A stretch of DNA of 64,000 nucleotides from an uncultured bacterium (GTDB taxonomy: Bacteria; Lernaellota; Lernaellaia; JACKCT01), in NCBI GenBank assembly GCA_964591275.1, contig CAZQAE010000023.1, positions 6,333 through 70,332 on the forward strand, read 5' to 3'. The notes beneath the pieces are model-generated. The model was not told where the DNA came from. It saw nothing but the letters and a program-made list of their open reading frames with translations, and searched no databases. The stretch's first letter is position 1. Each line of letters begins with the position of its first letter. A program made the translations under genes and the position numbers. Of this stretch, positions 1,289-15,879 are shown in pieces.

Positions 1289-1300
1289 TGTTCAATTCCC

Positions 1301-4150
1301 TCAATCAAAGAGTTCAGCCTGCGTGCCGGATGTAGACGTGGATTCGGTTTTACTGGCAAGCTTCTCCAACTCCGGCCATGCGATAACCAGGCCGTTGTAA
1401 GCACGAGCTTCCTCAGCCCACTTGTTGCGCTCGCAAGTAGTGTAGAGACGGTAGGCAAGGTTCCGCGCCTGCTCCGCCATTGGGCCAAGCTTCTTCAAAA
1501 GCGTTGCTGCGGCCTCCTCGCCGTCTTCTTCCAGTCGTTTGATAAGATGCTGGGTCGCCTCCCAGACCGTAAGACGCTTGTCGGCCTCCGGGTCCCAATC
1601 TTTGGGCAATTCTGCTCGTGTGAAGAGCCGGACCTTGCCTGCGGCGGAGTGAAGGACGCCTGCCTCTTGCACACCCTGCACGGATACGTTTCGGGCACGA
1701 GCAAGATTATCGGCCTCTCCGAAGGGACCGGCCTGGTATTGGTGGGTCTCGAACCAGGTCACGGCAAAGCGGGTGTCACCGTCGAGTGCGCCCTCTTCAG
1801 CACCCAAAGATTCGTCGAGCACCTGGTTGATAAGTTGGAGGGCACTTCGAACCGTCATAGCCGAGCCGTCGGCCTCGATGACTTTCTTGTACTTGGAGAA
1901 AACCGCCATGCCTGGGCCGATGGAGGATTGAGCGAGGTCAACGGGAGCAATGTTGCTCTTCTGGAGGTTTTGGAGTGCGCTGGGAAGCTCGGCGCGAAGA
2001 GTACGAATGAAGTCGCGGCGGGTTGTTATCGGTGCGTCCTCTGGGCGCTTGCGGCAGACGAGCACGATGCTAGAAGCAAGCACATTGCTCCCAGTCTTCA
2101 AACCTTGGTCGCGCTCCGTGCGTATGGGCCATGTACCAATTATGTTTAATCCAGCCTCTATGACAGCATCTAGGAAAGTTTCCCAACCAGTGCTAACAGT
2201 GCCTTCATCTTTTTTGCTTTCAGATTGCTTAAAGGCGTAGTAGATGGTCACAGGAAAAGCAGGGTGAGCTTGTTCTGCGATCCGTTGCATCGCCGAAGTC
2301 ATCCCACCCATGAAAAATTTCTCAGCTTGTACTTTTCCACCATGACGATGGGCAGCCGACACCAGTTCCTCAGACTTGGGAACCACTATGGTACTGAGTA
2401 GTTTTGGATATATATCCTTAAGGCAGGGTCGAAGCCAAACATAAAAGAAGTCTGATAGCTCTGCGTACCCAATATTATCGAAGTATGGTGGATCCGTAGA
2501 AACAATCCGCCTTTTACTTTGAATTTGCTTTTGTGCGTCCATTTGGACAGCAATACCAACCTGCGAAGCAGGTAAGGAAGTTTCAAGCACTTTGCAAATC
2601 CAGTTGATTGCACCCGACCAGTTGCCAGTCGAATCTGAAAACGGATTTGCTTCAGCATGGTCCCACACCATCCGAAGTGCGTTACGTCCAAATGTCTGTA
2701 CGATAAAATTGCCTGCCCATGGTGTTAGAGAAGACCAATAGTTGACACTACGTCCAACACCGAGTCCAGTGTAGGTAGCGATTGCATCAGCATAATCATG
2801 AGCAAAACTATCAGCGTCACTGTATCCCAATCGCGGAGCGCGATAAAAGTCTATTGCTGCATCTTTCCGCACCTTCTTCCAACACTCTCGCACTAACTCA
2901 CTAAACGTGACGAGTGCAGTTTGCTGTCGGGAAGTAAATGCATCACCCCATTGAAACATTCCGTACATCGGCAACCTATCGACATCATGGCATTTTGTTG
3001 GAACTGGAATGTTGGGCTTCCCAATAGGCTCTGGCGGAAAAGCCAAGGACTCCGATTGACTCTGTGGATCAAGAAAAACACGCTCCGACCTACCTTCCGC
3101 AATTATCGCTAAAAGGCGTCGCCCCATTCTTCCTGCCTGAGCTTCGGAACGAATGTATGCAGTATTGATAACAGAGCCAGATATTAGACATTGAAAAACT
3201 CCACGGCCTGTCTTAGTACCAGATTTAGAGATCATTGGGTGGAGTGGTACTCTGCGTCGTATTCTAAATAAATAAACGCTGCCATTAACGATTGGTTCAA
3301 CATAGGCTTCTTTCCCTTTTATTGTACTGAGTATAAAAGTAGAAATCAATGGCACGTCCACCTGACTAAACGCTGGATTTGGACTCTTCACCGTCCTTGC
3401 CCAAAGCCAGGCAATCACCGTAAGTTCTTGCCCGCGATATTTCTCAAGATCAGGACGCTCGGTGACCATTTCATTCGTGATTTTAACTTTTGGGTATAAG
3501 TGTCCAATTCGCTCATCAGCCTCGTCTCGCATCCACTCGGCATAATAGCGAACGTCCTCGGCAAGACCACCCGCACTCTTCCACTCCTTTTCAATGAGTG
3601 ATTTCTTACTGTGAGCTTCGAGGTTCACGGGCGGCATCCCTGCAAACTTGGGGGGGATTTCAATCATTGCCTTGTTAATAAGTACTGCAACCGGGTTCAG
3701 GTCTGATGCGCAGGACTCCAATCCCAATCGTTGAGCTTCCAAAGGTAATGTGCCACCGCCTGCAAAGGGGTCGTGGAAGGCGGGAAGCTTTTCTGGATCT
3801 TCCCCCGTCTCCTCACAAGTTCGTGCCCATGATTTCTTGATCTCGGCCCGAGCCTGATTGAGCACCTCTTCGTTGTTGGTGTTCTCCCACTTCACCAGTT
3901 CACGAATCAGATCAAAGAGGCGTTCTCGCTCTTTCACTACTTCTTCATCGCTGAGTCCCGGAATGGAGCCTGGATCGTCCACCATCTGGGCAAAGATAAC
4001 AGCTCGTGCTGCTGCGAGAGGGCGCCGTGCCCACCACAGATGCAGGGTGCTTGGGTGACCATGCCGAATTGACTTTTCGCGTTTACAGGCGGCGTTGATA
4101 TCATCAAGAGGGAGCGCCACCTCAATCAGCTTCTTTCGAGAAGTACTCAT
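1301..4150 (-). CDS. DUF1156 (COG1743) DNA methyltransferase, N6-adenine/N4-cytosine type, 949 aa
   Basis: The N-terminus (KKLIEVALPLDDINAACKREKSIRHGHPSTLHLWWARRPLAAARAV) matches the DUF1156 signature. SAM motif I is DPFAGGGTLPLEA and catalytic motif IV is STDPPYFDNIGY. Confidence 0.85.
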   Translation of the reverse strand: MSTSRKKLIEVALPLDDINAACKREKSIRHGHPSTLHLWWARRPLAAARAVIFAQMVDDPGSIPGLSDEEVVKERERLFDLIRELVKWENTNNEEVLNQARAEIKKSWARTCEETGEDPEKLPAFHDPFAGGGTLPLEAQRLGLESCASDLNPVAVLINKAMIEIPPKFAGMPPVNLEAHSKKSLIEKEWKSAGGLAEDVRYYAEWMRDEADERIGHLYPKVKITNEMVTERPDLEKYRGQELTVIAWLWARTVKSPNPAFSQVDVPLISTFILSTIKGKEAYVEPIVNGSVYLFRIRRRVPLHPMISKSGTKTGRGVFQCLISGSVINTAYIRSEAQAGRMGRRLLAIIAEGRSERVFLDPQSQSESLAFPPEPIGKPNIPVPTKCHDVDRLPMYGMFQWGDAFTSRQQTALVTFSELVRECWKKVRKDAAIDFYRAPRLGYSDADSFAHDYADAIATYTGLGVGRSVNYWSSLTPWAGNFIVQTFGRNALRMVWDHAEANPFSDSTGNWSGAINWICKVLETSLPASQVGIAVQMDAQKQIQSKRRIVSTDPPYFDNIGYAELSDFFYVWLRPCLKDIYPKLLSTIVVPKSEELVSAAHRHGGKVQAEKFFMGGMTSAMQRIAEQAHPAFPVTIYYAFKQSESKKDEGTVSTGWETFLDAVIEAGLNIIGTWPIRTERDQGLKTGSNVLASSIVLVCRKRPEDAPITTRRDFIRTLRAELPSALQNLQKSNIAPVDLAQSSIGPGMAVFSKYKKVIEADGSAMTVRSALQLINQVLDESLGAEEGALDGDTRFAVTWFETHQYQAGPFGEADNLARARNVSVQGVQEAGVLHSAAGKVRLFTRAELPKDWDPEADKRLTVWEATQHLIKRLEEDGEEAAATLLKKLGPMAEQARNLAYRLYTTCERNKWAEEARAYNGLVIAWPELEKLASKTESTSTSGTQAELFD

Positions 4151-4614
4151 GTGGATGCCTTCTTCAGTTTAAATGATGATTTGGCACAAAGGAACTTCTC
4201 GCCTGGACCAGACAAGTAGAGAAAGCTCTGTGGTGGATGGAATCGACCCGCTTCGCTAAGCTTACGAAGCCCTTGAGGAGTGGAAGCATGTTCGTAGGCA
4301 CCCAAGACAAATACACCTAGTGTTTCACAGTTTGCACAATAGCTTTTGACTTCTTCTCTCGAAAGACAGAAGAGCTTATGTTGCTGCAGAGCCTCATCTC
4401 TCGTGATCGCACCAATCTTGATTATCGGTGCTCTTCCAACGATGGCTGAAACAGGTGCCTTCGCCCAAAGATATATCCAATCGGGCGTACCTGTGCGTGG
4501 ATATCGTTTCCTAATCACTCGTTTTAATGAACCGTTGCTGATCTTCTCCAGGTCGGTGGGAGAAAAGGAAACGACAACAGAACATAAACGCGATTCTGCT
4601 TTGAAAGTGATCAT
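4147..4614 (-). CDS. Small (155 aa) PUA-like/ASCH-like protein, occupying the slot usually taken by DUF3780 in DUF499/DUF1156 cassettes
   Basis: It overlaps the methylase start (4147-4150) and the helicase stop (4611-4614) by 4 nt each, so it is translationally coupled. The segment ISNGSLKRVIRKRYP...IVGRAPIIKIGAI resembles the ASCH beta-barrel N-terminus (IlsGkKtiEiRk). The family assignment is tentative. Confidence 0.45.
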   Translation of the reverse strand: MITFKAESRLCSVVVSFSPTDLEKISNGSLKRVIRKRYPRTGTPDWIYLWAKAPVSAIVGRAPIIKIGAITRDEALQQHKLFCLSREEVKSYCANCETLGVFVLGAYEHASTPQGLRKLSEAGRFHPPQSFLYLSGPGEKFLCAKSSFKLKKAST

Positions 4615-7600
4615 GCGGGTGTCGCTCCATGATTCAGTAGATCATCCAGCTTGTAGGCCGTTGCTACTTCGCCAAACCCGGGTTCTTTGAATGGGAAGGC
4701 GCGGATGTAGGTCAGCTCGGATACTGCATCCCCATAGATTATGGCTACTGCCAGAATGAACTGGTCGGGCGCGTTCACAGCACACCGTACTTCGTTAGTA
4801 GTCAGCGTGACCTTATCTGCACCCTTGGCTCTGCCCTTCACCTCAATGAAGCGAAGTGTGCCTTCGGCGTCCTGGGACTCAATGTCGTAGCCAATACCTT
4901 TTGTGGCGCTCACGTCTTTAGGAACGCAGTCCAGAGAGCGCTCAGCCTCCATAACCGCTGCCATCGCCAACGCCTCAACCCGCTTACGTGCCTCAGCATC
5001 TACTCCGTCATCAGGCGAAACCGGTGCATGGCCCTGGTGCTTCAGCAAGAGTCCCGCGGGGATAATGAGCGCGCCACCTTTGACCTGCGGTGGACCCGCC
5101 ATGATCTGCCTCTCCTTTTGCAGCTCATCCAGTCGTGACTGGAGCCGGTCAGCGAGCTTGTCGGCGCGTTCCTGCGCAACGTGGGCAGGTAGTCGAGTGT
5201 TCTTGCCGGCACGTTCCTTGTGTTTGAGCATCTGGGCGCGGTGATCCCAATGGTTGATCTCTTTTGTGAGCCGAGCCTTGACCTGCTGCTCCACGCGATC
5301 GGTCTGCTCCATACGCTGTGCTTTGATCTCATTTACATGCTCAGGGATCACATCGGTGATGGCGTATCCCATGACCTCGTTGTCCCAGTCTTGCCGCAGC
5401 CACTGCGCGTCCAACTCGGCTTCAATCAAGGAGTGTTCGTTTTCGGCCAAAGGACGGTAATCAAGATAGGGCGCTGCGCCTGCTGATCGGTAGTTGCCGT
5501 CGGGTCCAACCTCAACAAACTGAAGGCGCTTGGAGATGGTCAGGAAGTCCCCGTCTCGACCCCGACGACCATCATGGATTTCGTGCTCCAGGTAGAAGAG
5601 TATTCGTGGCGTCTCACTCGCGTCAGCTTCATCCACCAAGACAGCACCACGCTTCATCAGCTCGCCGTGCTTTTCTAGGACGAGGTCGATGGTGGCATCA
5701 AGAAGCGGGCTGCCAGGGCAGACCAGTTCGGCGCGAGGCTGCTGGTCAACCATGTCTTTCTCGAAACATATGCGCTCGTAACGTTCACCAAGCGGGGCGC
5801 CCATTCCTATCTGCCGATCCCGGCGACGCAGAGCTACAGGGACACGGGAGACCTCCCATCGGCCCGACTCACGGCGGTGGACCTTACCACCCAGGCGGGG
5901 GAAGGCATCGAGGAAGAAGGCTTGAATGAAGTGAGGCTGGAGTCTGCGGGCATGGGCGCGTTCCATCTCCTCTCGGATGCTCTGAATGTGCGTGGTGTCC
6001 ATCGAGTCGTTGACCAAAGCCCTTTCATCGAGAATCTCCAGGAGATGGTCATGGTTGATGACGCCGTCTACCGCTTCGTTGAGGCGTGCCTTGACCTCGG
6101 GGTCGTTGCCGTAGCAAATCGCATCCATGAGCATCTCACGAAGGGCTTTCTGATCGAAGAGCCTGCCGAGTACGTCGTAGACCTTGCCGCCGAGGGCTTC
6201 ACGCTCGGCTTCGAGCTTCTCCAGCAGGCGGACGTATACATCGCCCTCACGGGTATCTTTGGCGATCAAGTTCCACAAGTGACAGACCTCGGCCTGGCCG
6301 ATGCGGTGAATGCGACCGAAGCGCTGTTCCAGTCGGTTAGGATTCCAGGGCAAATCGTAGTTCACCATCAGGTGCGACCTCTGGAGGTTCACACCTTCGC
6401 CCGCGGCATCGTTGGCGACCAACACCAGGACTTCGGGGTCGTTCATGAACCCATTGACGATACTGCGTCGCTCTTCTCGGGTTACGGACCCGTGTATCTC
6501 TACGACGGCCTTGTCCCGCCCGAGCCGGTTTCGGATACGTCTGCCAAGATAAAAAAGGGTGTCCTTGAACTCACTGAAGATGACCAGCTTTCGACGGTTC
6601 CCGTCATCATCTGTCATCAATGGATCATCAAGGATTGTACTGAGTTGGTTCCACTTGGCATCTTGGCCTGAGCGCACCACCGTCCGGGCAAGCCCTTCCA
6701 GTCGTTTGAGTGTCTCGATCTCAATCTGAAGTTCTTCGATGGTCGCCGCTGCTGTAGCGTTGTCGATGAGTTGGGTCTCAAGATCCTCCCGCTCCTCCTG
6801 GGGAGCCTCATCGTAGGCATCATCAAAGTTGTCCTCAGTTATACCATCGAGCACAGAGTCAGAAAACTCCAGCTTAGCCTTCTCACCCTTGAGCAGGATG
6901 CGCGCCTCACGCAGGCGGCTCTCCAGCTTCTCGTGACGGCGCTTGAGTGATCTATAGATAGACTCAGGAGACGAAGCCAGACGACGTTGGAGGATCATCA
7001 AGGCAAAGCCCACGTTGACACGCCGTGTCCCTTCTCCTTCAGCGAATCGCTCGGCCCGGTTCATCTCCTCGCGAACGTAGTCCGTTACTTCTGTATACAG
7101 AGCCGCCTCGGGCGCCGACAGGTCATACTGAACAGTGTAGGAACGGCGCTCGGGGAAGAGAGGTTTGCCGTCGAACTTGTAGAGGTCCTCTTTGACCAAG
7201 CGGCGCATTAGATCTGAGGGGTCAGGCGTATGGACACCATCACGGAATTTGCCCTCGAAACGATCGCTATCCAACAGGGCGAGGAAAATCTGAAAGTCCT
7301 CGTTCTTCCCATTGTGCGGGGTTGCTGTCATCAGAAGAAAGTTCCGACAGTGTCTACCAACCAACTGGCCCAGCTTGTATCTCTTGGTGAGTTTGACCTC
7401 GTTGCCGAAGTAATGGCCGCTCATCCGATGGGCTTCATCAACGATGATGAGATCCCACTCGGTGGCGTGTATAAACTTTTCCTGCAGATCTTCGTTGCGG
7501 GAGAGTTGGTCCATCCGAGCGATGAGGTAGTTGTTGTGGTCGAAAGGGTTGGCCGTGCGTGAGCTTTGAATCATTTCTCGGTTAAGCAGATCGAAGTTCA

Positions 7601-8129
7601 GCCCAAACTTTTCATATAGCTCGTCTTGCCATTGATCCGTAAGGGACCCGGGAGAGATAATAAGGCATCGCTTGAGGTCACCCCGAACCATTAGCTCCTT
7701 GATGAGGAGTCCGGCCATGATGGTCTTACCGGCGCCAGGATCATCTGCGAGAAGAAAGCGCATCGGCTGACGAGGCAGCATCTCTTCATAGACTGCTGAT
7801 ATTTGATGCGGCAAGGGCATGATGATGCTGGTGGTGATCGCAACATATGGATCAAACAGCCAAGCAAGATTGATCCGATACGCTTCTGAGACAAGACGAA
7901 GGAGCGCACCGTCCCCATCAAAGGACCAGGGCTTACCGCCGGCGACAACCTCGATGCCCGGTTCATCGTCACGATAGATGAGGCGTTCTCCATACTGGCC
8001 AGAGGAGTCCTTGTAGACAAGCTTCATTGCCTGGTCTCCGATCCACTCTGCCGAGACGACGGTCGCAACACCAGTGGGCGAGATGCCGCTCATCCGCGCT
8101 CCAGCAGTCAATTCCTCTAGCTTCGCCAT
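4611..8129 (-). CDS. SNF2-family DNA helicase (1172 aa) with C-terminal DUF3883-like (NO VEIN-type) domain
   Basis: Helicase motifs present are I (LLADDPGAGKT), II (IIVDEAHRM), V (VANDAAGEGVNLQ) and VI (QRFGRIHRIGQ). The C-terminal approximately 120 aa (GYDIESQDAEGTLRFIEVKGRAKG...) is typical of DUF3883 appended to defence helicases. Confidence 0.85.
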   Translation of the reverse strand: MAKLEELTAGARMSGISPTGVATVVSAEWIGDQAMKLVYKDSSGQYGERLIYRDDEPGIEVVAGGKPWSFDGDGALLRLVSEAYRINLAWLFDPYVAITTSIIMPLPHQISAVYEEMLPRQPMRFLLADDPGAGKTIMAGLLIKELMVRGDLKRCLIISPGSLTDQWQDELYEKFGLNFDLLNREMIQSSRTANPFDHNNYLIARMDQLSRNEDLQEKFIHATEWDLIIVDEAHRMSGHYFGNEVKLTKRYKLGQLVGRHCRNFLLMTATPHNGKNEDFQIFLALLDSDRFEGKFRDGVHTPDPSDLMRRLVKEDLYKFDGKPLFPERRSYTVQYDLSAPEAALYTEVTDYVREEMNRAERFAEGEGTRRVNVGFALMILQRRLASSPESIYRSLKRRHEKLESRLREARILLKGEKAKLEFSDSVLDGITEDNFDDAYDEAPQEEREDLETQLIDNATAAATIEELQIEIETLKRLEGLARTVVRSGQDAKWNQLSTILDDPLMTDDDGNRRKLVIFSEFKDTLFYLGRRIRNRLGRDKAVVEIHGSVTREERRSIVNGFMNDPEVLVLVANDAAGEGVNLQRSHLMVNYDLPWNPNRLEQRFGRIHRIGQAEVCHLWNLIAKDTREGDVYVRLLEKLEAEREALGGKVYDVLGRLFDQKALREMLMDAICYGNDPEVKARLNEAVDGVINHDHLLEILDERALVNDSMDTTHIQSIREEMERAHARRLQPHFIQAFFLDAFPRLGGKVHRRESGRWEVSRVPVALRRRDRQIGMGAPLGERYERICFEKDMVDQQPRAELVCPGSPLLDATIDLVLEKHGELMKRGAVLVDEADASETPRILFYLEHEIHDGRRGRDGDFLTISKRLQFVEVGPDGNYRSAGAAPYLDYRPLAENEHSLIEAELDAQWLRQDWDNEVMGYAITDVIPEHVNEIKAQRMEQTDRVEQQVKARLTKEINHWDHRAQMLKHKERAGKNTRLPAHVAQERADKLADRLQSRLDELQKERQIMAGPPQVKGGALIIPAGLLLKHQGHAPVSPDDGVDAEARKRVEALAMAAVMEAERSLDCVPKDVSATKGIGYDIESQDAEGTLRFIEVKGRAKGADKVTLTTNEVRCAVNAPDQFILAVAIIYGDAVSELTYIRAFPFKEPGFGEVATAYKLDDLLNHGATPA

Positions 8130-8344
8130 TCGTAAAATTCCTTTCCCATCCCTGGGGCGGGAGAAAGTAAATAGTACACATCAACATGGTCTGGGTTCAG
8201 GGGGAATTCGCGAACCGCCACGCCTTTAGTGGTGTGAAGATTCATCACGTCACGATTCTGGACAATCCACCCTGTCATGCCGAGCATCCCATCAATGACA
8301 ATGCGGGCTTTCTCTTCCGGAGTTTTAGCGCCGGGAGCGTTCAT
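8117..8344 (-). CDS. 75-aa ORF resembling the N-terminus of an HsdR-type restriction subunit (HSDR_N motif); probably a gene remnant
   Basis: EEKARIVIDGMLGMTGWIV resembles the HSDR_N consensus (ea.tR..IDp.L...GW.v). It overlaps the helicase start by 13 nt in another frame. It is too short to be a functional nuclease domain. Confidence 0.25.
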   Translation of the reverse strand: MNAPGAKTPEEKARIVIDGMLGMTGWIVQNRDVMNLHTTKGVAVREFPLNPDHVDVYYLLSPAPGMGKEFYEWRS

Positions 8345-8900
8345 AAATTTCCCCGTCAGTTTCGCTCAATCTGATAACCCGGCCAATCGAAGGGATACAA
8401 TGAATCCAGATTTCACATAACCTTCAAACGCGCCTGACATTAAAGCGATTTCAGATCATAGGCCTCCGGCGATTCAACGTCAACGCGCAGCGCCGATACT
8501 CCGCACACAAAAATCCGTACGCACGGTCAATTTCCACACACCGGAAAAAATAATACACCGACCGGCATTTCACCGGCTGAGTGGGTCCCCTTTAAGGCGA
8601 GCCGAAGTCCCGGGGCCTTGCTTTGTCAGCCCAGAGGTTCAGACGGTAGGTCGGAAGTATGCGGGCGGTTTCTCATCCCGCGACCCAACAGGGAGCTGGT
8701 CGAGCACGACGAGGAGGAGGCCGAGAGCGAAGACACCTTGAAGTGGACTGTGCCTATAACCGTGCCCAGAATAATGGCCCATAACGGGAACTAACCGGAA
8801 GTATCCGGAAGTAACGAGAGGTGCGTGGAATGCATAAAAGCGAGATAATGCAAGGGAAGCGCCGTAATCTCGCATAGTTAGATGTTTCCGTTCGTTAGGG

Positions 8901-8923
8901 TTCGAACCCCGTCGCCCGCTAAA
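8901..8923 (+). repeat. Copy 1 of a perfect 23-bp direct repeat TTCGAACCCCGTCGCCCGCTAAA (tRNA T-loop-like GGTTCGAACCCC)
   Basis: There is an exact match to 12763-12785. An imperfect TTTTCTCATTT(T) motif also occurs in both regions: at 8968-8979 (about 45 nt downstream of copy 1) and at 12741-12750 (about 12 nt upstream of copy 2). Confidence 0.8.
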
Positions 8924-8964
8924 TGAAAGATGGTCCATAAGGCATTGTTTTTGCGGGCCTTTTC

Positions 8965-9339
8965 TCATTTTACAAGCCTCAAATGACTGGATCTTTCAGG
9001 CCGTTGACAGATTTCTTGACAACTTTCTTGCTTTTCAAGCCCAGGGAGCAGGCGATCTACGGCGTCTTTCGCTGCCTGACCAGGGCTGTGCGTGTACCTC
9101 ATCGTGACACGAATATCGGAATGGCCAAGGATTTTTTGTACGACTTCAAACGAAGTCCCATTCAGAACGAGCAGCGAAGCGAAGGAATGCCGAATGTCGT
9201 GAAAGCGAATGCGCTTCAATCCCGCCTTCACGCAAACTCGATGAAAGGGTTTACGAAATGAATATGCCGTCACTTGGTGCCCCTCTGGACTCACAATTGG
9301 TGCTAAACGCCTATCAGCATCAGAGGATGATTCTCCCAA
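8965..9339 (-). pseudogene. Tyrosine recombinase (phage integrase family) C-terminal catalytic fragment, 124 codons; 5' part of gene missing
   Basis: It contains the HxxR box (HDIRHSFAS) and the catalytic Tyr region (VTMRYTHS). There is no N-terminal core-binding or arm-binding domain. The upstream DNA is occupied by the start of the 9404 gene. Confidence 0.7.
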
Positions 9340-9403
9340 TTTGCTATTTCATGTTTTTAAGTTCACCATTCGTTGAGAATTTTCAAATTGACGGGGATAA
9401 TAA

Positions 9404-12400
9404 ATGCGAACGCCGGTAATTTTTTGGACTTTGCTTTTGGCTTGCCTGCTTTCTTTTTCTATTTCGTGCGGCGGAGGCGGAGACGACGATGATTCCGATG
9501 ATGACGATGCTGGGGAAAGCGAATACGGGGCCTGCTGCGTCGATGGCGCCTGCTCAGTGACAACATACGCTGATTGTTCCGGTTCCTGGCAGGGACCGGG
9601 CACGAATTGCGATCCTAATCCGTGCGTTGACGACGACGTGGATGATGACGTTGACGACGATGTTGATGACGACGCGGATGATGACGTTGACGACGATGTT
9701 GATGACGACGCGGATGATGATACGGACGACGACACAGACGATGATGCGGACGATGACGTAGATGATGATGACACAACGGAGCCGACAACAACGACGACTG
9801 TCGAACCAACGACCACAACGACGCAGGAGCCGACCACGACGACCACGGTTGCACCGACGACAACAACGACGCAGGAGCCAACCACGACGACCACGGTTGC
9901 GCCAACAACCACAACGACGCAGGAGCCGACCACGACGACCACGGTTGAGCCAACAACCACAACAACCACGCAGGAACCGACCACAACGACAATTGTCACA
10001 ACAACTTCGACAACAACCACGACAGGGAATCCCGACGCCGAGGAAGTTATCGTGCCTGCAGGTACTTTTTGGATGGGTTGCGAACCGGACGACTCTGAAT
10101 GTGAATTAAATCCGAACGAACATCCTCGACACGAAGTAGAAATGTCGGAATACTACATTGACGTGTTTGAAGTAACCAATGAGAAATACGCCCAATACAT
10201 GAACCTGCATAATCCTTTGAATGATTGCTATGACTACACATGTGTGGAATCGTCTCATAAGGCCAGTAGCAAAGGGATATATGAGGAAAGCGGAGTCTGG
10301 ATGGTTGACGAAAGATATGAGTCTCGTCCTGTAGTTGGCGTAACATGGTATGGTGCGTTAGCGTATTGCGAAGCACAGGATAAGTCTTTGCCGACAGAAG
10401 CGCAATGGGAAAAAGCGGCAAAAGGTGGAGATGAGCATTACATCTATCCCTGGGGTAATACATGGAACTATTATTCGACTAACTGGGCCAATCAGATGGA
10501 CGAATATGAAAGAATTTCAGAGTTGCCGAAGACAACTCCAGTGGGTTATTTTAATGGCGACATTTATGATGAAGGTACTATGTGGGAATACCAAACCATG
10601 GATGGACGCAGTCCTTACGGAGCACATGACATGCTCGGCAATGTTGACGAATGGGTCTATGATAGCTATCAAGCTGATTACTATTCTCAAACGCCCGCTG
10701 GAGGTTGGGTAGATCCTGTTGGCCCGGATGAAGTCAACCGCAAGGTATTTAAGGGAGGTAACTGGAATAATTCAAATCCAAGCTGGGAACAGAGAAACAG
10801 CCTTAGAGAAAATGAGCTTTCTTTTGATTCCAATGGTAGAATCGGTTTTCGATGTGCATTTGCCTCACCAACGACTACTTCCACAACAACGACTACGATT
10901 GCACCAACAACGACAACCACGGTTGCACCGACGACCACAACCACGCAGGAACCGACCACGACAACCACGGTTGCGCCAACAACCACAACGACGCAGGATC
11001 CAACCACGACGACCACGGTTGCGCCAACAACCACAACGACGCAGAATCCGACCACAACAACTATCGAGACTACAACGACGACGGTTGCGCCGACCACGAC
11101 CACGACGACCACGTCCACAACGACAACAACGGCGTGTCCGGGATGTTACATTGGAGAGACTTGTTTGGCGGAAGATGAGGTTAATCCCGACAATATCTGC
11201 GAAATATGCAAACCCGATCAGGATCGCTTCGACTGGTCCTCAAACGACGGCGAATTGTGTGACGATGAAGAATTCTGCAACGGAACGGATGCCTGCCTGG
11301 AGCGCACTTGTTCCGATCATTCAGGCGACCCCTGCCCGGATGATGGCTTATGGTGCACCGGTGTGGAAGGCTGCAACGACATTCTTGAAGAATGTGAGCA
11401 GCTCAACATCCCGGAATGTCCTGATGACAACCTGTTCTGTACCGGAAATGAATTCTGCGACGAGGTAAATGATCTGTGCGACAGCGAAGGCGATCCATGC
11501 GAAGATGGAACGATTTGCGATGAAGAGAACAATGTTTGCGTGACGACAACGACGACGACAAGCACATCCACTTCGACAACGACAACCGTTGAAACTACAA
11601 CAACCACGACCCAGGAACCAACCACGACGACTACAGTAGAACCGACCACAACAACCACGACAGGGAATCCCGACGACGAGGAGGTTTCCGTGCCCGAGGG
11701 CGCATTCCAGATGGGTTGCGAGCCGGAGGATGAAAATTGCTCAAATAATGAATCGCCCCGCCACGAGGTCTGGTTGTCCGCGTATTCCATCGATACATAC
11801 GAAGTGACCAACGAAAGTTACGCGGAGTTTCTGACTTGGCACGGCAACGTCTGCGAGGGGTACGGGTGCGTGGGTGCGGATTCTTCTTCTCTGCGCCTCA
11901 GCGAATCCGACGGCGTCTGGTCAGTCGATTCCGGTTATGAAGATCATCCTCTGGTAGAAGTGACTTGGTACGGCGCAAGGGCTTATTGCGAGTCGCAAGG
12001 CAAGCGTTTGCCGACGGAAGCCGAGTGGGAAAAGGCCGCCAAGGGCGCTGCGGAACACTACATCTACCCTTGGGGCGACACGATGATCACCAATGCCGCA
12101 AATTACAGGGACTCCGGCGACCCCTACGATAATGATACGACGCCGGTTGGATACTTCGACGGCAGCGACCACGGCGGCGCGTATCAGACAACTGATGGAC
12201 GCAGTCCTTATGGCGCGCACGATATGGCTGGCAATGTGTGGGAATGGGTGAACGACTGGTACTCGTCAACCTACTATTCCACCAGCCCATCAACCGATCC
12301 TCCGGGACCGGTTTCCGGTGGGTACCGTGTTTTGCGCGGCGGTTGCCGGGGCTATGGTTTCATGTACCTGCGTGCGTCGGACCGGGCCTCGGGCGTCCCT

Positions 12401-12445
12401 CGCAACACGTACGGCTACTACGGGTTCCGTTGTTCCCGGGACTGA
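9404..12445 (+). CDS. 1013-aa secreted lipoprotein with a polyAsp linker, three Thr/Pro mucin-like repeat blocks, a Cys-rich module and two SUMF1/FGE-sulfatase-fold domains
   Basis: Signal/lipobox is LLSFSISC followed by GGGGDDDDSDDDD. Repeats are (EPTTTTTV/APTTTTTQ)n. FGE-fold motifs occur twice: PAGTFWMGCEP...RHEV...VTWYGALAYCEAQDKSLPTEAQWEKAAKG...YPWGN...GAHDMLGNVDEWV...FRC, and again around 11690-12440. Confidence 0.75.
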   Translation: MRTPVIFWTLLLACLLSFSISCGGGGDDDDSDDDDAGESEYGACCVDGACSVTTYADCSGSWQGPGTNCDPNPCVDDDVDDDVDDDVDDDADDDVDDDVDDDADDDTDDDTDDDADDDVDDDDTTEPTTTTTVEPTTTTTQEPTTTTTVAPTTTTTQEPTTTTTVAPTTTTTQEPTTTTTVEPTTTTTTQEPTTTTIVTTTSTTTTTGNPDAEEVIVPAGTFWMGCEPDDSECELNPNEHPRHEVEMSEYYIDVFEVTNEKYAQYMNLHNPLNDCYDYTCVESSHKASSKGIYEESGVWMVDERYESRPVVGVTWYGALAYCEAQDKSLPTEAQWEKAAKGGDEHYIYPWGNTWNYYSTNWANQMDEYERISELPKTTPVGYFNGDIYDEGTMWEYQTMDGRSPYGAHDMLGNVDEWVYDSYQADYYSQTPAGGWVDPVGPDEVNRKVFKGGNWNNSNPSWEQRNSLRENELSFDSNGRIGFRCAFASPTTTSTTTTTIAPTTTTTVAPTTTTTQEPTTTTTVAPTTTTTQDPTTTTTVAPTTTTTQNPTTTTIETTTTTVAPTTTTTTTSTTTTTACPGCYIGETCLAEDEVNPDNICEICKPDQDRFDWSSNDGELCDDEEFCNGTDACLERTCSDHSGDPCPDDGLWCTGVEGCNDILEECEQLNIPECPDDNLFCTGNEFCDEVNDLCDSEGDPCEDGTICDEENNVCVTTTTTTSTSTSTTTTVETTTTTTQEPTTTTTVEPTTTTTTGNPDDEEVSVPEGAFQMGCEPEDENCSNNESPRHEVWLSAYSIDTYEVTNESYAEFLTWHGNVCEGYGCVGADSSSLRLSESDGVWSVDSGYEDHPLVEVTWYGARAYCESQGKRLPTEAEWEKAAKGAAEHYIYPWGDTMITNAANYRDSGDPYDNDTTPVGYFDGSDHGGAYQTTDGRSPYGAHDMAGNVWEWVNDWYSSTYYSTSPSTDPPGPVSGGYRVLRGGCRGYGFMYLRASDRASGVPRNTYGYYGFRCSRD
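9771..10025 (+). repeat. Tandem 48-bp coding repeats (Thr/Pro-rich linker block 1)
   Basis: Reiterated ccgaccacgacgaccacggttgcgccaacaaccacaacgacgcaggag units. Block 2 lies at about 10863-11135 and block 3 at about 11540-11665. Confidence 0.8.
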
Positions 12446-12482
12446 TTTACCCTTGAGCTCTTTTACCCTTTGAAAGGGGTTT

Positions 12483-12503
12483 CCAAAGGGGTATCCCCTT
12501 TGG
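12483..12503 (+). other. Perfect 9-bp-stem hairpin CCAAAGGGG-TAT-CCCCTTTGG, 38 nt after the stop of the 9404 gene; no U-tract follows
   Basis: Read directly from the sequence. A second near-palindrome, CCCTTTGAAAGGGG, lies at 12466-12479. Confidence 0.6.
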
Positions 12504-12619
12504 TGGGACTTGGGGCGAAGATGAGAATCTTCATTTCAAGGGCGATGCCCGCCCCTACGGCGCAGCCTGGGACATTGGCGCTGATGAATGGACGCCGTGA
12601 TGGGTTTCTTTTTGCAGTT

Positions 12620-12631
12620 TGTCAATTGACA
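12620..12631 (+). promoter_or_regulatory. Perfect 12-bp palindrome TGTCAATTGACA (candidate dimeric protein-binding site)
   Basis: It is self-complementary and located in the non-coding stretch between the hairpins and repeat copy 2. Confidence 0.3.
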
Positions 12632-12762
12632 GATTTTCGGCGAATTTTCGTGCATTGAAACAAATTTTCCGGCACTGAAAACAACTTTGAAAGCGCCGTA
12701 AGTGATTGAAATAGTGGCAATGTGGCGTAATACCAGAGTTTTTCTCATTTCATCGATTCGCT

Positions 12763-12785
12763 TTCGAACCCCGTCGCCCGCTAAA
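12763..12785 (+). repeat. Copy 2 of the 23-bp direct repeat TTCGAACCCCGTCGCCCGCTAAA
   Basis: There is an exact match to 8901-8923. It is flanked by TTTTTCTCATTT (12740-12751) and TTTTTCTTATTTT (12826-12838). Confidence 0.8.
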
Positions 12786-12913
12786 GCGAAAAGGCCGGTA
12801 ACTACTGAAAGTTGCTGGCTTTTTCTTATTTTGCCCTTCGGAAACCTGTTGGTTTGCAACGAGTTTTCTACTAAAGTCGGCGATACTGACTCGCCGCCGC
12901 GATCACCGTCGAG

Positions 12914-13396
12914 TTGCGGCATTATATTCCGCAGGTCCGTCGCGTCATCGATCAGGCCGAACGCCGCGTACTCAAGGGTGAGACCCTCCCGCCCGCGGAG
13001 AAGCTCGTCTCCATCTTCGAGCCGCATACCGACATTATCGTCAAGGATCGGCGGGATACATACTTCGAACACAAGGTCGTGCTCACCGGCGGCGCTTCGG
13101 ATCTGCTCACCGATCTCGTTGTCGAAAAAGGCAATCCGGCGGACTCAAGTCTGGCCGAAAAGATGATCGTTCGGCAAAAAGAGATTTACGGACGTGCGCC
13201 GCGTCAGGCCGCCTTCGACGGCGGCTTTGCCTCCAAGGACAACCTGAAGGACATCAAGGCGCTCGACGTCAAAGACGTCGCCTTCCACAAGAAACGGGGA
13301 CTGAAGATCGACGACATGGCGAAGAGCGCCTGAGTCTATAAGCGCCTGCACAATTTCCGCACCGGAATCGAGGGCAAAGCTGCACGCAAAGCATGA
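12914..13396 (+). pseudogene. IS4/IS5-superfamily DDE transposase fragment, with no N-terminal third and an in-frame TGA at 13331
   Basis: The DxG(F/Y) box is AAFDGGFASKDNLKDI. After the internal stop the same frame continues as VYKRLHNFRTGIEGK, resembling the C-terminal YK..R..IE signature. Confidence 0.6.
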
Positions 13397-13622
13397 ATCC
13401 AATAGGGAGATGGCGCACCGGCAAGGCTCAATCAACGATTATTGCGCCTCATGCGACAACCGCATCAGCCAATCGGACTGCCCGGTCGCTCGAAAACCCC
13501 CATTACGGGACAGGAACTTATTAATTTTTTCTTTTCACAATTCTTTTGCTTTCGGGTATAATTTCGATGGCTCACGGTGAAAATTGTCTGTTGTGAATAT
13601 TTCACTCGGAGGTGATTGCGTT

Positions 13623-14522
13623 ATGAGTCCAAACCCTGCTCAGTTCCTTAACCTGGAACCTGAATTCACCAATCCAAAATTGGCCCAAACGGTTATTCTG
13701 CCCGTTCCTTACGAGGGAGGCGCCTCGCATGGAAAGGGCGCAGCGAACGGTCCGAGGGCCATTATCGAGGTTTCACGCAATATTGAACTCTACGATGAAG
13801 TCTACGGAAAAGAGATTCACACTGGCGGTATCGCAACATTAGCGCCTGTCGATACATCAGGAGATCCCCGGACAGTTATGGAAAATATCCGGGCGGAGGC
13901 GGCGAAGTGGATGAAAAACGGTAAATTCCTTATCGGTATCGGCGGAGATCATTCTGTCACCTTCGGCCTGTTTGGCGGCGTTCAAGAAGCGCATCCTGAC
14001 ATAGCGTGCATCCAGATCGATGCCCGCCCGGATTTGCGTAATATCTATGCGAATGATCCGCTCAGCCATGTCTGCGTGATGTCGCGGATTCGCGAACTTA
14101 AGGCCCAGACTCTTCACCTCGGCATTCGAAGCATGAACGCCGCTGAAGCGCAGCGTATTAAAAACGAGAAAATCGAAACCGTACGAATGCAGGAGTTCTA
14201 TCAGAAAAAAGTGGATATCGGAAGAATCCTGGCCACGATCGGCGAGCGGGTTTATCTCACTATTGACTTGGGTTGCCTGGATTGGTCGGTTATCCGCTCA
14301 ACCGGCACGCTGGAGCCGGGAGGCTTCACCTGGCGTGAAATGCTTGAGCTTCTCGATATGATTTTCAAAGACAAGAATGTTGTGGCCTGCGACGTGATGG
14401 AACTGGCTCCAAAAGAAAACGACGTCAACTCGGCCTTCGCCGCTGCCCGGCTCGTTTTCAAGCTCATCGCCATGAAGCACAGTATCGAGCACATTGTCCG
14501 CATGGATGGCCTGGTCATTTAA
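13623..14522 (+). CDS. Arginase/agmatinase-family ureohydrolase
   Basis: The manganese-ligand motifs GGDHSVT and DARPD are present, with an RBS GGAGGTGA 11 nt upstream of ATG 13623. The track ORF starts at 13584. Confidence 0.8.
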   Translation: MSPNPAQFLNLEPEFTNPKLAQTVILPVPYEGGASHGKGAANGPRAIIEVSRNIELYDEVYGKEIHTGGIATLAPVDTSGDPRTVMENIRAEAAKWMKNGKFLIGIGGDHSVTFGLFGGVQEAHPDIACIQIDARPDLRNIYANDPLSHVCVMSRIRELKAQTLHLGIRSMNAAEAQRIKNEKIETVRMQEFYQKKVDIGRILATIGERVYLTIDLGCLDWSVIRSTGTLEPGGFTWREMLELLDMIFKDKNVVACDVMELAPKENDVNSAFAAARLVFKLIAMKHSIEHIVRMDGLVI

Positions 14523-14631
14523 AGCGTCCGAAAAATAGCGAGGGCATCTCTTTTCACTTTGGGTCATGGCATAATTCTGTCTGTTCATGTATAGGCAAAT
14601 ATGGTTTGAATTGCTTTCCAGGAGTCTTCAT

Positions 14632-15879
14632 ATGTCCAATCCTTTACAACTCGACAAATCTCAGGCGCTTTACACGCAGGCCAAAAACTTGATTCCCGGC
14701 GGCATGCTGGGCATTCGTCGCCCGTATAATTTCGTGCCCGATGAATATCCCGTCTTCATCGCCTCGGGCAAAGGCGGTCGCGTGACGGACGTGGACGGCA
14801 ACGAATACGTCGATATGCTTTGTTCCTACGGCCCGATCATCCTCGGGCATTGTGAAAAAGAGATCGACGACGCGGTCATTGAGCACATCCGATCAAGCGG
14901 TTTCTGCTTTTCCCTCGTTCACGAATCCCAGAATCGCCTGGTCGAAACCCTGCGTCGCGTCATCCCATGCTGCGAAATGGGCATCATCGTCAAAACAGGC
15001 TCGGACGCCACAACGTGCGCGGTGCGCATTTCCCGCGGATTTACGAAAAAACTCAAGGTGCTGCGTTGCGGCTATCACGGCTGGCACGACTGGTGCGTCG
15101 AAGTGAAAGGCGGCGTCCCGCCAAAACTTTACGAGGACACGCACGAGTTTCCTTACAACGATCTGGACGCCCTGGAGGCGCTCCTGAAAGAACATTCGGG
15201 CGATGTGGCGTGCGTGATTATTACTCCCGTCGGCCATCCTTTGGCGCGGCCGGTCGAAGCGCCGAAACCGGGTTATCTCGAAGGCGTCCGCGAACTGGCC
15301 GACCGGCACGAGTGCGTCCTCGTGTTCGACGAAATCCGCACCGGTTTCCGGGCCGCTTTGGGCGGGGCGCAGGAGCGTTACGGCGTGACGCCGGATTTGG
15401 CCACGGTGGGCAAAGCTATGGCCAACGGCTATCCCATCGCGGCGGTGGTGGGCAAATCGGATATCATGCGCATCGCCGAAAAAGAGGTCTTCATTTCCAG
15501 CACGTATTTCCCCAACAGCACCGAGACGATCGCCGCCCTCAAAACAATAGAAATCCTCGAACGTGAGAACGTCATGGATGGCATCTGGCGACGCGGCGAG
15601 GATTTCCTGAATCGCTTGCGCGCCATCGCGGAAGGCAGCGCAACAGACGCGCATGTTTCGGGAATACCGCCAATGCCCTTCGTGACCTTCCCGTCGAAGC
15701 AAGACAAGTCCCATAAATGGCAACGAAAAACTTTTTATACAGAGTTGATCCGGCGCGGCGTCTTCATGCAGCCCTTTCACCACAGCTACATCGCCTGGCG
15801 GCATACGGATGCGGATCTTGAGCAGGTGCTGGGCGCGGCGGAAGAAGCGCTGAAAGTTGTGGCAAAAGGGCATTCGTAA
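14632..15879 (+). CDS. Class-III (PLP) aminotransferase, glutamate-1-semialdehyde 2,1-aminomutase (HemL)-like
   Basis: The N-terminus (AKNLIPGGMLGIRRP...GGRVTDVDGNEYVDMLCSYGPIILGH) and the PLP lysine region (ATVGKAMANGYP) fit this family. An RBS AGGAG lies 7 nt upstream of ATG 14632. Confidence 0.8.
   Translation: MSNPLQLDKSQALYTQAKNLIPGGMLGIRRPYNFVPDEYPVFIASGKGGRVTDVDGNEYVDMLCSYGPIILGHCEKEIDDAVIEHIRSSGFCFSLVHESQNRLVETLRRVIPCCEMGIIVKTGSDATTCAVRISRGFTKKLKVLRCGYHGWHDWCVEVKGGVPPKLYEDTHEFPYNDLDALEALLKEHSGDVACVIITPVGHPLARPVEAPKPGYLEGVRELADRHECVLVFDEIRTGFRAALGGAQERYGVTPDLATVGKAMANGYPIAAVVGKSDIMRIAEKEVFISSTYFPNSTETIAALKTIEILERENVMDGIWRRGEDFLNRLRAIAEGSATDAHVSGIPPMPFVTFPSKQDKSHKWQRKTFYTELIRRGVFMQPFHHSYIAWRHTDADLEQVLGAAEEALKVVAKGHS

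What the first reader, a model, noticed from the sequence alone, without database searches (positions are those of the whole stretch)
8901..13396. Decayed integrative element: 23-bp perfect direct repeats bracketing an integrase fragment and a giant secreted-protein cargo, abutted by an IS pseudogene
TTCGAACCCCGTCGCCCGCTAAA occurs exactly twice (8901-8923 and 12763-12785), with additional TTTTCTCATTT motifs in both flanks. The repeats contain a tRNA T-loop-like GGTTCGAACCCC, so they look like attL/attR duplications of a tRNA or tmRNA 3' end. Between them lie only a 124-codon integrase C-terminal fragment and the 1013-aa lipoprotein gene. A DDE transposase pseudogene with an in-frame stop lies just outside the right repeat. 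Together this looks like a fossil genomic island whose cargo gene has been retained.
Basis: seen in the sequence. Interest (0 to 1): 0.55.

Follow-up and report, generated by a model that had tools for sequence, protein, structure and literature searches.

The report
Decayed integrative island at tRNA-Gly
The two 23-base repeats are leftover 3' ends of a glycine tRNA gene, the footprints of a mobile element that inserted there and has since lost most of its integrase, which is an ordinary and well-known kind of genomic scar.

Summary
TTCGAACCCCGTCGCCCGCTAAA occurs exactly twice in the window (8901-8923 and 12763-12785).

Its first 20 bases are the exact 3' end (T-loop to discriminator) of tRNA-Gly, mostly tRNA-Gly(CCC), in many phyla. 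It does not come from tmRNA.

Just inside the left copy lies the last 110 codons of a tyrosine integrase. Its full-length relatives sit convergently next to intact tRNA-Gly(CCC) or tRNA-Asp genes. One intact 9-kb relative is flanked by a perfect 23-bp repeat covering the same tRNA positions, 54-76.

So 8924-12762 is a degraded integrative element. It keeps both ends but has lost about 72% of its integrase, and its only intact gene encodes a 1013-aa protein with two FGE-sulfatase domains.

- Neither copy adjoins a tRNA, and there is no tRNA-Gly in the 16.6 kb to the left.
- The left neighbour is compositionally foreign DNA carrying an Hma defence system.
- The right copy is followed by the conserved left-end sequence of another element of the same kind, which is cut off by an ISNCY transposase fragment.

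The locus is best read as the decayed distal part of a tandem array of islands at tRNA-Gly(CCC). This is a known phenomenon, so interest is low.

The parts
1..8129 (-). Left neighbour: Hma anti-phage system. HmaC N-terminal part is at 1-1288 and runs off the window, HmaB is at 1301-4150, a PDC-M11B-like small gene is at 4147-4614, and HmaA is at 4611-8129. The region is compositionally foreign. It may be the cargo of a newer element X.
   Evidence: PADLOC HmaA scores 1637 bits, HmaB 1395 bits and HmaC 1025 bits, all full length. Tetranucleotide correlation with the core is 0.56, against 0.91-0.97 for core pieces of the same size. Further left on the same contig lie a Rad52-like gene, a PD-(D/E)XK nuclease and an HTH repressor.
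8130..8897 (.). Non-coding stretch left of copy 1. It holds the upstream region of the Hma operon and possibly the right end of element X. It is not a tRNA or tmRNA body.
   Evidence: No Rfam match even at E<=10. ARAGORN finds nothing at its default or 80% score thresholds; at the 70% threshold it draws only low-quality tRNA-like candidates, one of them at 8839-8921. No similarity to the tRNA-Gly 5' part, p=0.64.
8898..8923 (+). Copy 1: tRNA-Gly positions 51-73 plus AAA. The exact 23-mer is 8901-8923. It is the left attachment junction of element Y.
   Evidence: There is a 26-nt exact match to the intact tRNA-Gly(CCC) of L127. Homology to the L128 tRNA-integrase junction stops at 8898.
8924..8964 (+). 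Left end of element Y: a degenerate hairpin and T-run between the tRNA end and the integrase stop codon. It runs into the TTTTCTCATTT motif (8960-8970), which extends six bases past this interval across the integrase stop codon (8965-8967).
   Evidence: The 44-nt gap compares with 45 nt in L127 and 42 nt in L128. Similarity of the 62 nt after the tRNA end to L128, L129 and L133 gives z 6.5-8.0.
8965..9339 (-). Tyrosine integrase remnant. Homology covers 8968-9297, the last 110 of about 397 residues, and keeps the HxxR and the C-terminal His/Tyr region. The N-terminal ~287 residues are missing.
   Evidence: Pfam E 3.5e-18. 67% identity to P0212 residues 288-397. 53% identity to the 426-aa L127 integrase.
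9404..12445 (+). The only intact gene of element Y: a probable lipoprotein with two FGE-sulfatase domains (51% identical to each other), Asp-rich and Thr-rich linkers and a Cys-rich middle. A promoter-like site lies at 9373-9401.
   Evidence: Repeat-length polymorphism against the ENA contig.
12504..12762 (+). Right end (arm) of element Y, with TTGACAGATTT at 12626 and TTTTCTCATTT at 12740. Each has its only other copy in the window at the left end of Y (9004 and 8960).
   Evidence: Two shared 11-mers arose in 0 of 20000 shuffles, and 0 of 88 real control segment pairs shared even one.
12763..12785 (+). Copy 2: tRNA-Gly positions 54-73 plus AAA. It is the right attachment junction of element Y.
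12786..12892 (+). Vestige of a further element Z: a conserved terminator hairpin (12788-12825) and T-run, then about 65 nt with only faint resemblance to integrase C-terminal tails.
   Evidence: Terminator scan. Window 12763-12827 is 97% identical to the sequence that follows the intact tRNA-Gly and precedes the integrase in L127. Similarity to L128 gives z 10.4 and to L129, which sits at tRNA-Asp, z 7.2. Weak tail matches such as KLVANQ.
12893..13396 (+). ISNCY-family transposase pseudogene fragment. Homology covers 12911-13378, with an in-frame stop at 13331-13333. It lacks about 246 N-terminal and about 40 C-terminal residues.
   Evidence: NCBIfam NF033593 positions 247-405 of 444, E 1.3e-52. 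Translation.
13527..15865 (+). Start of the conserved region (arginase-family and aminotransferase genes). This is the right limit of the mobile-element debris.
   Evidence: 93-95% nucleotide identity to L121 begins exactly at 13527.

Best explanation
The segment 8924-12762 (element Y) is the remnant of an integrative element. It belongs to a family whose tyrosine integrase recombines a 23-bp core matching positions 54-76 of a tRNA gene, here tRNA-Gly(CCC).

Integration duplicated that core, giving the two 23-bp repeats. The integrase gene lay at the element's left end, transcribed towards the tRNA. A short hairpin and T-run lay between the two and would terminate both the tRNA and the integrase transcripts.

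Later a deletion or replacement removed the first ~287 codons of the integrase and any other element genes. What remains is the integrase tail, a gene for a probable lipoprotein with two FGE-sulfatase domains and its own promoter, and both element ends with their paired 11-mer motifs. These motifs are inferred to be arm-type integrase binding sites.

The element can no longer excise on its own.

It is one unit of a tandem accretion array. An older element Z, of which only the left-end hairpin survives, lay to its right and was destroyed in an event involving an ISNCY insertion sequence. The DNA to its left, carrying the Hma defence system and phage-like recombination genes, most likely arrived later by insertion into the regenerated tRNA-Gly. 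That pushed copy 1 away from the tRNA gene, which should then lie beyond the left end of the contig.

Shown:
- the identity of the repeat
- the integrase homology and its geometry
- the family-wide 23-bp att core
- the conserved left-end sequence after both copies
- the foreign composition of the left neighbour

Inferred:
- the order of events
- the arm-site function of the 11-mers
- the existence and position of the intact tRNA
For: The repeat and its origin:
- Exactly two copies in the window.
- The 20-mer is the 3' end of tRNA-Gly in more than 100 genomes of many phyla.

Relatives with an intact tRNA:
- L127 has an intact tRNA-Gly(CCC) followed by AAA and a hairpin that is 97% identical to copy 2 and its downstream sequence. 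A full-length 426-aa integrase follows.
- L128 has an integrase 67% identical to the fragment, convergent with tRNA-Gly(CCC). Window 8898-9264 is 73.7% identical in nucleotides to that junction.
- L130 carries an intact 9.08-kb relative flanked by a perfect 23-bp repeat of tRNA-Asp positions 54-76.

The junction architecture:
- The gap between tRNA end and integrase stop is 42-45 nt in L127, L128 and the window.
- The hairpin and T-run are conserved across the family, including members at tRNA-Asp.

The ends of Y:
- Two 11-mers are unique to the two ends of Y.

The surroundings:
- No tRNA and no tRNA-like 5' part adjoins either copy, and none lies in the 7.7 kb beyond the window.
- The left region is a compositional outlier carrying Hma and phage-like genes.

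Precedent:
- Tandem arrays with one tDNA fragment per island are documented (PMC4383910, PMC3146451).
Against: - The intact tRNA-Gly of this genome was not found, so the array model is not closed.
- In the related element of L129, the Rad52 and PD-(D/E)XK genes are transcribed towards the integrase and tRNA end. On this contig the homologous pair points the other way relative to where element X's integrase should be. The left region may therefore be more than one element, or may be rearranged.
- The integrase vestige of Z rests on weak matches.
- Hairpin and T-run similarity could be inflated by the general shape of terminators, because the null was a mononucleotide shuffle.
- With its repeats removed, Y has only borderline atypical composition: r 0.75 against 0.77-0.93 for core pieces.
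Confidence: 0.8

Rival explanations
1. This is a single island whose left junction lost the tRNA. Copy 1 was once the 3' end of an intact tRNA-Gly(CCC). A later deletion or insertion, for example the arrival of the Hma-bearing DNA by another route, removed tRNA positions 1-50. On this view there is no array to the left and this tRNA-Gly(CCC) gene is gone from the genome.
For: - There is no tRNA within 16.6 kb to the left.
- The three extra bases GGG at 8898-8900 match tRNA positions 51-53, as expected if they are the tRNA's own.
- The orientation of the Rad52 and PD-(D/E)XK genes does not fit a canonical element X.
- From general knowledge, tRNA-Gly(CCC) is dispensable when tRNA-Gly(UCC) is present.
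Against: - The breakpoint would have to fall by coincidence within 3 nt of the crossover region used by this integrase family.
- The analogous junction at copy 2 clearly has an element end on both sides. That shows accretion did happen at this site at least once.
Confidence: 0.3
2. This is a simple intact-site island as first proposed. The repeats would be attL and attR of one island inserted in a tRNA or tmRNA gene that is still present beside the left repeat, with native chromosome to the right of the right repeat.
For: - A 23-bp perfect direct repeat is present.
- The integrase fragment lies adjacent to the left copy.
Against: - No tRNA or tmRNA is found by ARAGORN at its default or 80% thresholds (only low-quality candidates at 70%) or by Rfam at E<=10.
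- The upstream sequence is unrelated to tRNA-Gly.
- The sequence downstream of copy 2 matches the element-borne hairpin found next to integrases at both tRNA-Gly and tRNA-Asp.
Confidence: 0.03
3. The two 23-mers are a chance repeat or copies of a dispersed repeat, unrelated to site-specific recombination.
For: None beyond the fact that the whole genome could not be searched.
Against: - No matches were expected in shuffles.
- The sequence is an exact tRNA-Gly 3' end.
- A homologous integrase lies at the canonical distance.
- A scan of JGI metagenomes for the 23-mer found only copy 1 of this organism and one intact tRNA-Gly gene.
Confidence: 0.02

Closest known systems
tDNA-integrated genomic islands with a T-stem/T-loop crossover (Islander database; Williams 2002 sublocation classes, cited from PMC4383910)
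   Same: - A tyrosine integrase is involved.
- The target is the 3' part of a tRNA gene, starting in the T-loop.
- A displaced 3' tDNA fragment marks the far end of the island.
- The integrase gene lies next to the tRNA-side junction.
   Different: - The integrase is reduced to its last 110 codons.
- The regenerated tRNA gene is not beside the island.
- Only one intact gene remains.
Tandem (accretion) arrays of islands at one tDNA, for example the Dehalococcoides ssrA islands with repeated 20-bp ssrA 3' fragments (PMC3146451) and the Islander tandems (125 arrays of two or more islands, PMC4383910)
   Same: - Successive short direct repeats of the tDNA 3' end are present, each followed by the left end of an element.
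- Some units are decayed and lack a working integrase.
- The cargo is accessory genes and defence genes.
   Different: - The target is tRNA-Gly(CCC), not ssrA.
- The integrase is a tyrosine recombinase, whereas the Dehalococcoides one is a serine recombinase (DsiB).
- The head of the array, meaning the intact tDNA, is not on the available contig.
Intact relatives found here: the L130/L131 element at tRNA-Asp (9.08 kb, integrase P0137), the L128 element (integrase P0212) and the L127 element, both at tRNA-Gly(CCC)
   Same: - The integrases belong to the same family, 51-67% identical over the surviving part.
- Integrase and tRNA are convergent in all of them.
- A hairpin and T-run lie between them.
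- The direct repeat is 23 bp and covers tRNA positions 54-76.
   Different: Element Y is 3.84 kb rather than about 9 kb or more. It lacks the integrase N-terminus, the excisionase-like HTH gene and the replication or recombination genes.

Membership tests
tRNA-targeting tyrosine-integrase genomic island (Islander definition) | A direct repeat that is a fragment of a tRNA or tmRNA gene, in the same orientation as the gene | tested here: met
   The 20-mer equals tRNA-Gly positions 54-73 in more than 100 genomes. Both copies are on the + strand.
tRNA-targeting tyrosine-integrase genomic island (Islander definition) | An intact, regenerated tRNA gene at one end of the island | tested here: not met
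   No tRNA is found at either copy or within 16.6 kb to the left. This feature is expected to be missing for an inner unit of a tandem array.
tRNA-targeting tyrosine-integrase genomic island (Islander definition) | An integrase gene inside the island, next to the tRNA-side junction | tested here: inconclusive
   The gene is present only as a C-terminal remnant of 110 out of about 397 residues. Its position and orientation are correct.
tRNA-targeting tyrosine-integrase genomic island (Islander definition) | An empty site in a related genome | tested here: inconclusive
   The closest relative found (L121) shares only 13527-15865 and has a different left flank. L127 and L128 have the tRNA-Gly locus, but it is occupied by other elements.
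Integrase clade of P0212, the L127 integrase, P0137 and P0139 | Sequence homology through the catalytic C-terminal domain | tested here: met
   67%, 53-57%, 51% and 52% identity to those four respectively, with E values from 1e-24 to 5e-52.
Integrase clade of P0212, the L127 integrase, P0137 and P0139 | A 23-bp att core covering tRNA positions 54-76 | tested here: met
   The L130 repeat TTCGAGTCCCGTCAACCCCGCCA occurs twice, 9077 bp apart. The window repeat has the same length and the same tRNA coordinates.
Integrase clade of P0212, the L127 integrase, P0137 and P0139 | Recombination activity on these sites | not testable with these tools
   This needs an excision or integration assay.
Tandem accretion array at one tDNA | Each unit has its own tDNA fragment followed by an element left end | tested here: met
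   Both copies are followed by the family's conserved hairpin and T-run.
Tandem accretion array at one tDNA | An intact tDNA heads the array | not testable with these tools
   The contig ends 16.6 kb left of copy 1.
tmRNA (ssrA) target | A tmRNA gene body upstream of the repeat | tested here: not met
   ARAGORN in tmRNA mode at relaxed thresholds and Rfam at E<=10 find nothing in 8200-9100.
ISNCY insertion sequence | A full-length DDE transposase | tested here: not met
   Only model positions 247-405 of 444 are present, with an internal stop. It is a pseudogene fragment.

The most novel reading that the evidence does not exclude
Element Y may not be a dead fossil. It could be a cis-mobilisable element. 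It keeps both 23-bp cores and both arms with their paired 11-mer motifs, so a related integrase encoded elsewhere in the genome, for example by the element at the head of the array, could still excise it and move the gene for the two-domain FGE-sulfatase lipoprotein between cells.
Probability: 0.12. Interest if true: 0.3.

Novelty: new member of a known kind. Interest (0 to 1): 0.15.

Why it matters
The result matters mainly for annotation.
- It marks 1-13526 of this window as mobile-element debris and accessory DNA rather than core genome.
- It explains why automatic gene callers placed a spurious 109-aa ORF over a tRNA fragment.
- It assigns an uncharacterised integrase clade to a defined 23-bp target, tRNA positions 54-76 of tRNA-Gly(CCC) or tRNA-Asp. 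That is the kind of integrase and att-site pairing wanted by catalogues of integrases for genome engineering.

It does not reveal a new mechanism.

Tried and rejected
- tmRNA or another structured RNA upstream of copy 1. I noticed GCGGGCG at 8662, which could pair with the 3' CGCCCGC. Rfam at E<=10 found nothing, and ARAGORN found nothing at its default or 80% thresholds. At the 70% threshold ARAGORN gave only low-quality candidates. Dropped.
- A decayed tRNA-Gly body upstream of either copy. Local alignment to four tRNA-Gly 5' parts was no better than shuffles, p 0.64 and 0.35.
- Exact look-up of the window's FGE and arginase ORFs as I had delimited them. Neither was on record because the start codons differ. 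This was solved through the homologue search.
- A homologue search with the 124-aa fragment alone gave only short, weak hits. Searching with the full-length L127 integrase worked.
- Viral contigs hold no relative of the L127 integrase.
- An empty site in L121 was not available.
- I looked for this integrase family beside the 120 sampled tRNA-Gly loci. Only 2 distant hits turned up.
- I asked whether L127 is the missing head of this same array. There is no sequence overlap, and its tetranucleotide correlation of 0.92 is lower than L121's 0.98. Left open.
- No right-end similarity was found between Y, the putative X and L130 beyond an 11-mer.
- I did not search homologues of the FGE protein in other genomes.
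Full report
**Observation**

The 23-mer TTCGAACCCCGTCGCCCGCTAAA lies at 8901-8923 and 12763-12785 on the + strand. No further copy exists in the window even with three mismatches allowed, and none was expected by chance.

A 77.8-kb ENA contig of the same organism is 99% identical overall and 100% identical over 8130-9403 and 12446-13526. It carries the same two copies and no others, including in the 7.7 kb that lie left of the window start.

The other components of the finding also hold:
- ORF 8965-9339 (-) is the C-terminal part of a tyrosine recombinase.
- ORF 9404-12445 encodes a 1013-aa protein with a signal peptide, a lipobox-like SISC and two FGE-sulfatase domains.
- 12911-13378 is an ISNCY transposase fragment with an in-frame stop.

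**What the repeat is**

In 27 of the 30 loci examined, the match is the last 20 bases of a tRNA-Gly gene, from T54 in the T-loop to the discriminator base. The anticodon is mostly CCC, sometimes TCC or GCC.

The repeat is therefore a tRNA-Gly 3' end followed by AAA where many genomes encode CCA. It is not from tmRNA. ARAGORN at its default and 80% thresholds, and Rfam down to E = 10, find no tRNA or tmRNA body next to either copy; at the 70% threshold ARAGORN draws only low-quality tRNA-like candidates, one of them at 8839-8921. The 80 bases upstream of each copy are no more similar to the 5' part of tRNA-Gly than shuffled sequence is.

**The integrase and its family**

A scan of JGI metagenomes for the 23-mer returned only two contigs. 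One is the same organism.

The other, L127, has an intact tRNA-Gly(CCC) followed by AAA and a hairpin. This stretch is 97% identical to window 12763-12827. A full-length 426-aa integrase then follows on the opposite strand and is 53% identical to the window fragment. A family-A DNA polymerase gene comes next.

Searching with that integrase found a large family. The window fragment is closest to P0212, at 67% identity over residues 288-397 of 397, reaching the C-terminus of both.

P0212 lies on a 1.47-Mb contig (L128). It is convergent with an intact tRNA-Gly(CCC), in a locus syntenic with L127. At the nucleotide level, window 8898-9264 is 73.7% identical to the L128 stretch made of the integrase 3' end, the hairpin and the tRNA 3' end. 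Homology stops at tRNA position 51.

Other family members sit in the same geometry at tRNA-Asp(GTC): P0139, P0137 and P0135.

In L130 the P0137 element is complete. It is 9.08 kb long and flanked by a perfect 23-bp direct repeat, TTCGAGTCCCGTCAACCCCGCCA, which is tRNA-Asp positions 54-76. That is the same length and the same tRNA coordinates as the window repeat.

This gives family-level evidence that the two window copies are attachment-site duplications made by an integrase of this clade.

**Element Y (8924-12762)**

The integrase stop codon lies 44 nt from the tRNA end, compared with 45 nt in L127 and 42 nt in L128.

Two 11-mers each occur only twice in the 64-kb window. In both cases the two copies lie once near each end of Y, in direct orientation:
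- TTTTCTCATTT at 8960 and 12740
- TTGACAGATTT at 9004 and 12626

Two such shared 11-mers never arose in 20,000 shuffles. None of 88 real control segment pairs shared even one. I read them as arm-type binding sites of the former attP. This is an inference.

The integrase lacks its first ~287 residues. The break lies between 9297 and 9403, next to a promoter-like site for the FGE gene. Y cannot excise by itself.

Whether the FGE gene is original cargo is open:
- It has no paralogue in the sequences held.
- Without its repeats it is only borderline atypical in composition.
- Its Asp-rich and Thr-rich linkers vary in length between two assemblies of the same organism.

**Why this is not a single simple island**

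First, copy 1 has no tRNA beside it, and there is none in the 16.6 kb to its left.

That left-hand DNA correlates at only 0.56 with the window core in tetranucleotide use, against 0.91-0.97 for core pieces of the same size. It carries a complete Hma defence system. Beyond the window it also carries a Rad52-like gene, a PD-(D/E)XK nuclease and an HTH repressor. The first two have homologues in the L129 element.

Second, the 62 bases after copy 2 are significantly similar to the sequence that separates the tRNA from the integrase in L127 (z 26.6), L128 (z 10.4) and the tRNA-Asp element of L129 (z 7.2). The bases after copy 1 are similarly related to L128, L129 and L133.

Because this hairpin and T-run travels with the integrase family whatever the target tRNA, it is element-borne. 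Copy 2 is therefore followed by the left end of another element, Z. Only about 100 bases of Z survive before the ISNCY fragment. There are also faint matches to integrase C-terminal tails.

Conserved chromosome, judged by 93-95% identity to a relative, begins at 13527.

**Model**

Elements of this family inserted repeatedly into one tRNA-Gly(CCC) gene. Each insertion regenerates the tRNA and pushes the previous junction to the right.
- Z came first and was later destroyed in an event involving the insertion sequence.
- Y came next and later lost most of its integrase.
- The DNA to the left of copy 1 most likely came last.
- The intact tRNA should lie beyond the contig end.

Such tandem arrays, with one tDNA fragment per island, are documented: 125 arrays in the Islander survey (PMC4383910) and the Dehalococcoides ssrA islands (PMC3146451).

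The main alternative is that the tRNA 5' part was simply deleted. I put this at about 0.3. A closed genome is needed to exclude it.

One observation does not fit a tidy element X. The Rad52 and nuclease pair points away from where X's integrase should be, whereas in L129 the pair points towards the integrase. The left region may therefore be composite or rearranged.

**Verdict**

It needs correcting in detail:
- the source is tRNA-Gly, not tmRNA
- no intact tRNA is adjacent
- both neighbours are also mobile-element DNA

This is a new example of a well-known kind of locus. Interest is low.

Noticed in passing
window 1-8129 (-) and L125:12863-16165: There is a complete Hma (helicase-methylase-ATPase) anti-phage system. 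HmaA, HmaB and HmaC all score above 1000 bits in PADLOC. HmaC carries an N-terminal Swt1-like HEPN domain. A small PDC-M11B-like gene lies between HmaB and HmaA.
   Followed up: partly
window 9640-9675 and 9812-9907: The FGE-domain gene differs from the ENA assembly of the same organism by two in-frame indels: 36 nt in the Asp-rich repeats and 96 nt in the Thr-rich repeats. The proteins are 1013 and 969 aa. This is either real length polymorphism or assembly collapse in the repeats. Two short JGI/ENA contigs also break inside this gene.
   Followed up: partly
window 13527-15865 compared with L121: The arginase-family and aminotransferase genes are 93-95% identical in nucleotides to a 293-kb JGI contig, yet nothing else within 20 kb is shared. 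L121 has two extra genes between the pair. The module looks mosaic or recently exchanged.
   Followed up: no
window 8639-8968 (-): The public annotation of the ENA contig calls a 109-aa gene here. It runs across the tRNA-Gly fragment and has no family match, so it is probably a spurious call.
   Followed up: partly
L129:57-2063: A CRISPR-like array of 28 repeats (GTCTCCACCGCTTCTGAGTGGTGGAGTGGATTGAAAC, ~72-nt period) lies a few hundred bases from the far end of the region that holds the tRNA-Asp element genes.
   Followed up: no
window 8924-8964 and 12786-12833; L127, L128, L129, L133: A hairpin followed by CTTTTTCT(N)ATTT is conserved between the tRNA 3' end and the integrase stop codon across this integrase family, whichever tRNA is targeted. 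It probably acts as a two-way terminator carried by the element.
   Followed up: partly
window 18243-21563 (-): A large gene has N6_Mtase and Type_ISP_C domains (a Type ISP restriction-modification enzyme) in the public annotation of the same contig. It is a second defence gene 5 kb to the right of the locus.
   Followed up: no
L127:7146-8846 and L128:11432-13192: The protein encoded just upstream of tRNA-Gly in both relatives is an M14 carboxypeptidase in L127 (Pfam) with a 67%-identical, 586-aa homologue in L128. Both end in a long Asp-rich tail followed by SNSCGC, reminiscent of the Asp-rich linker of the window's FGE protein.
   Followed up: no
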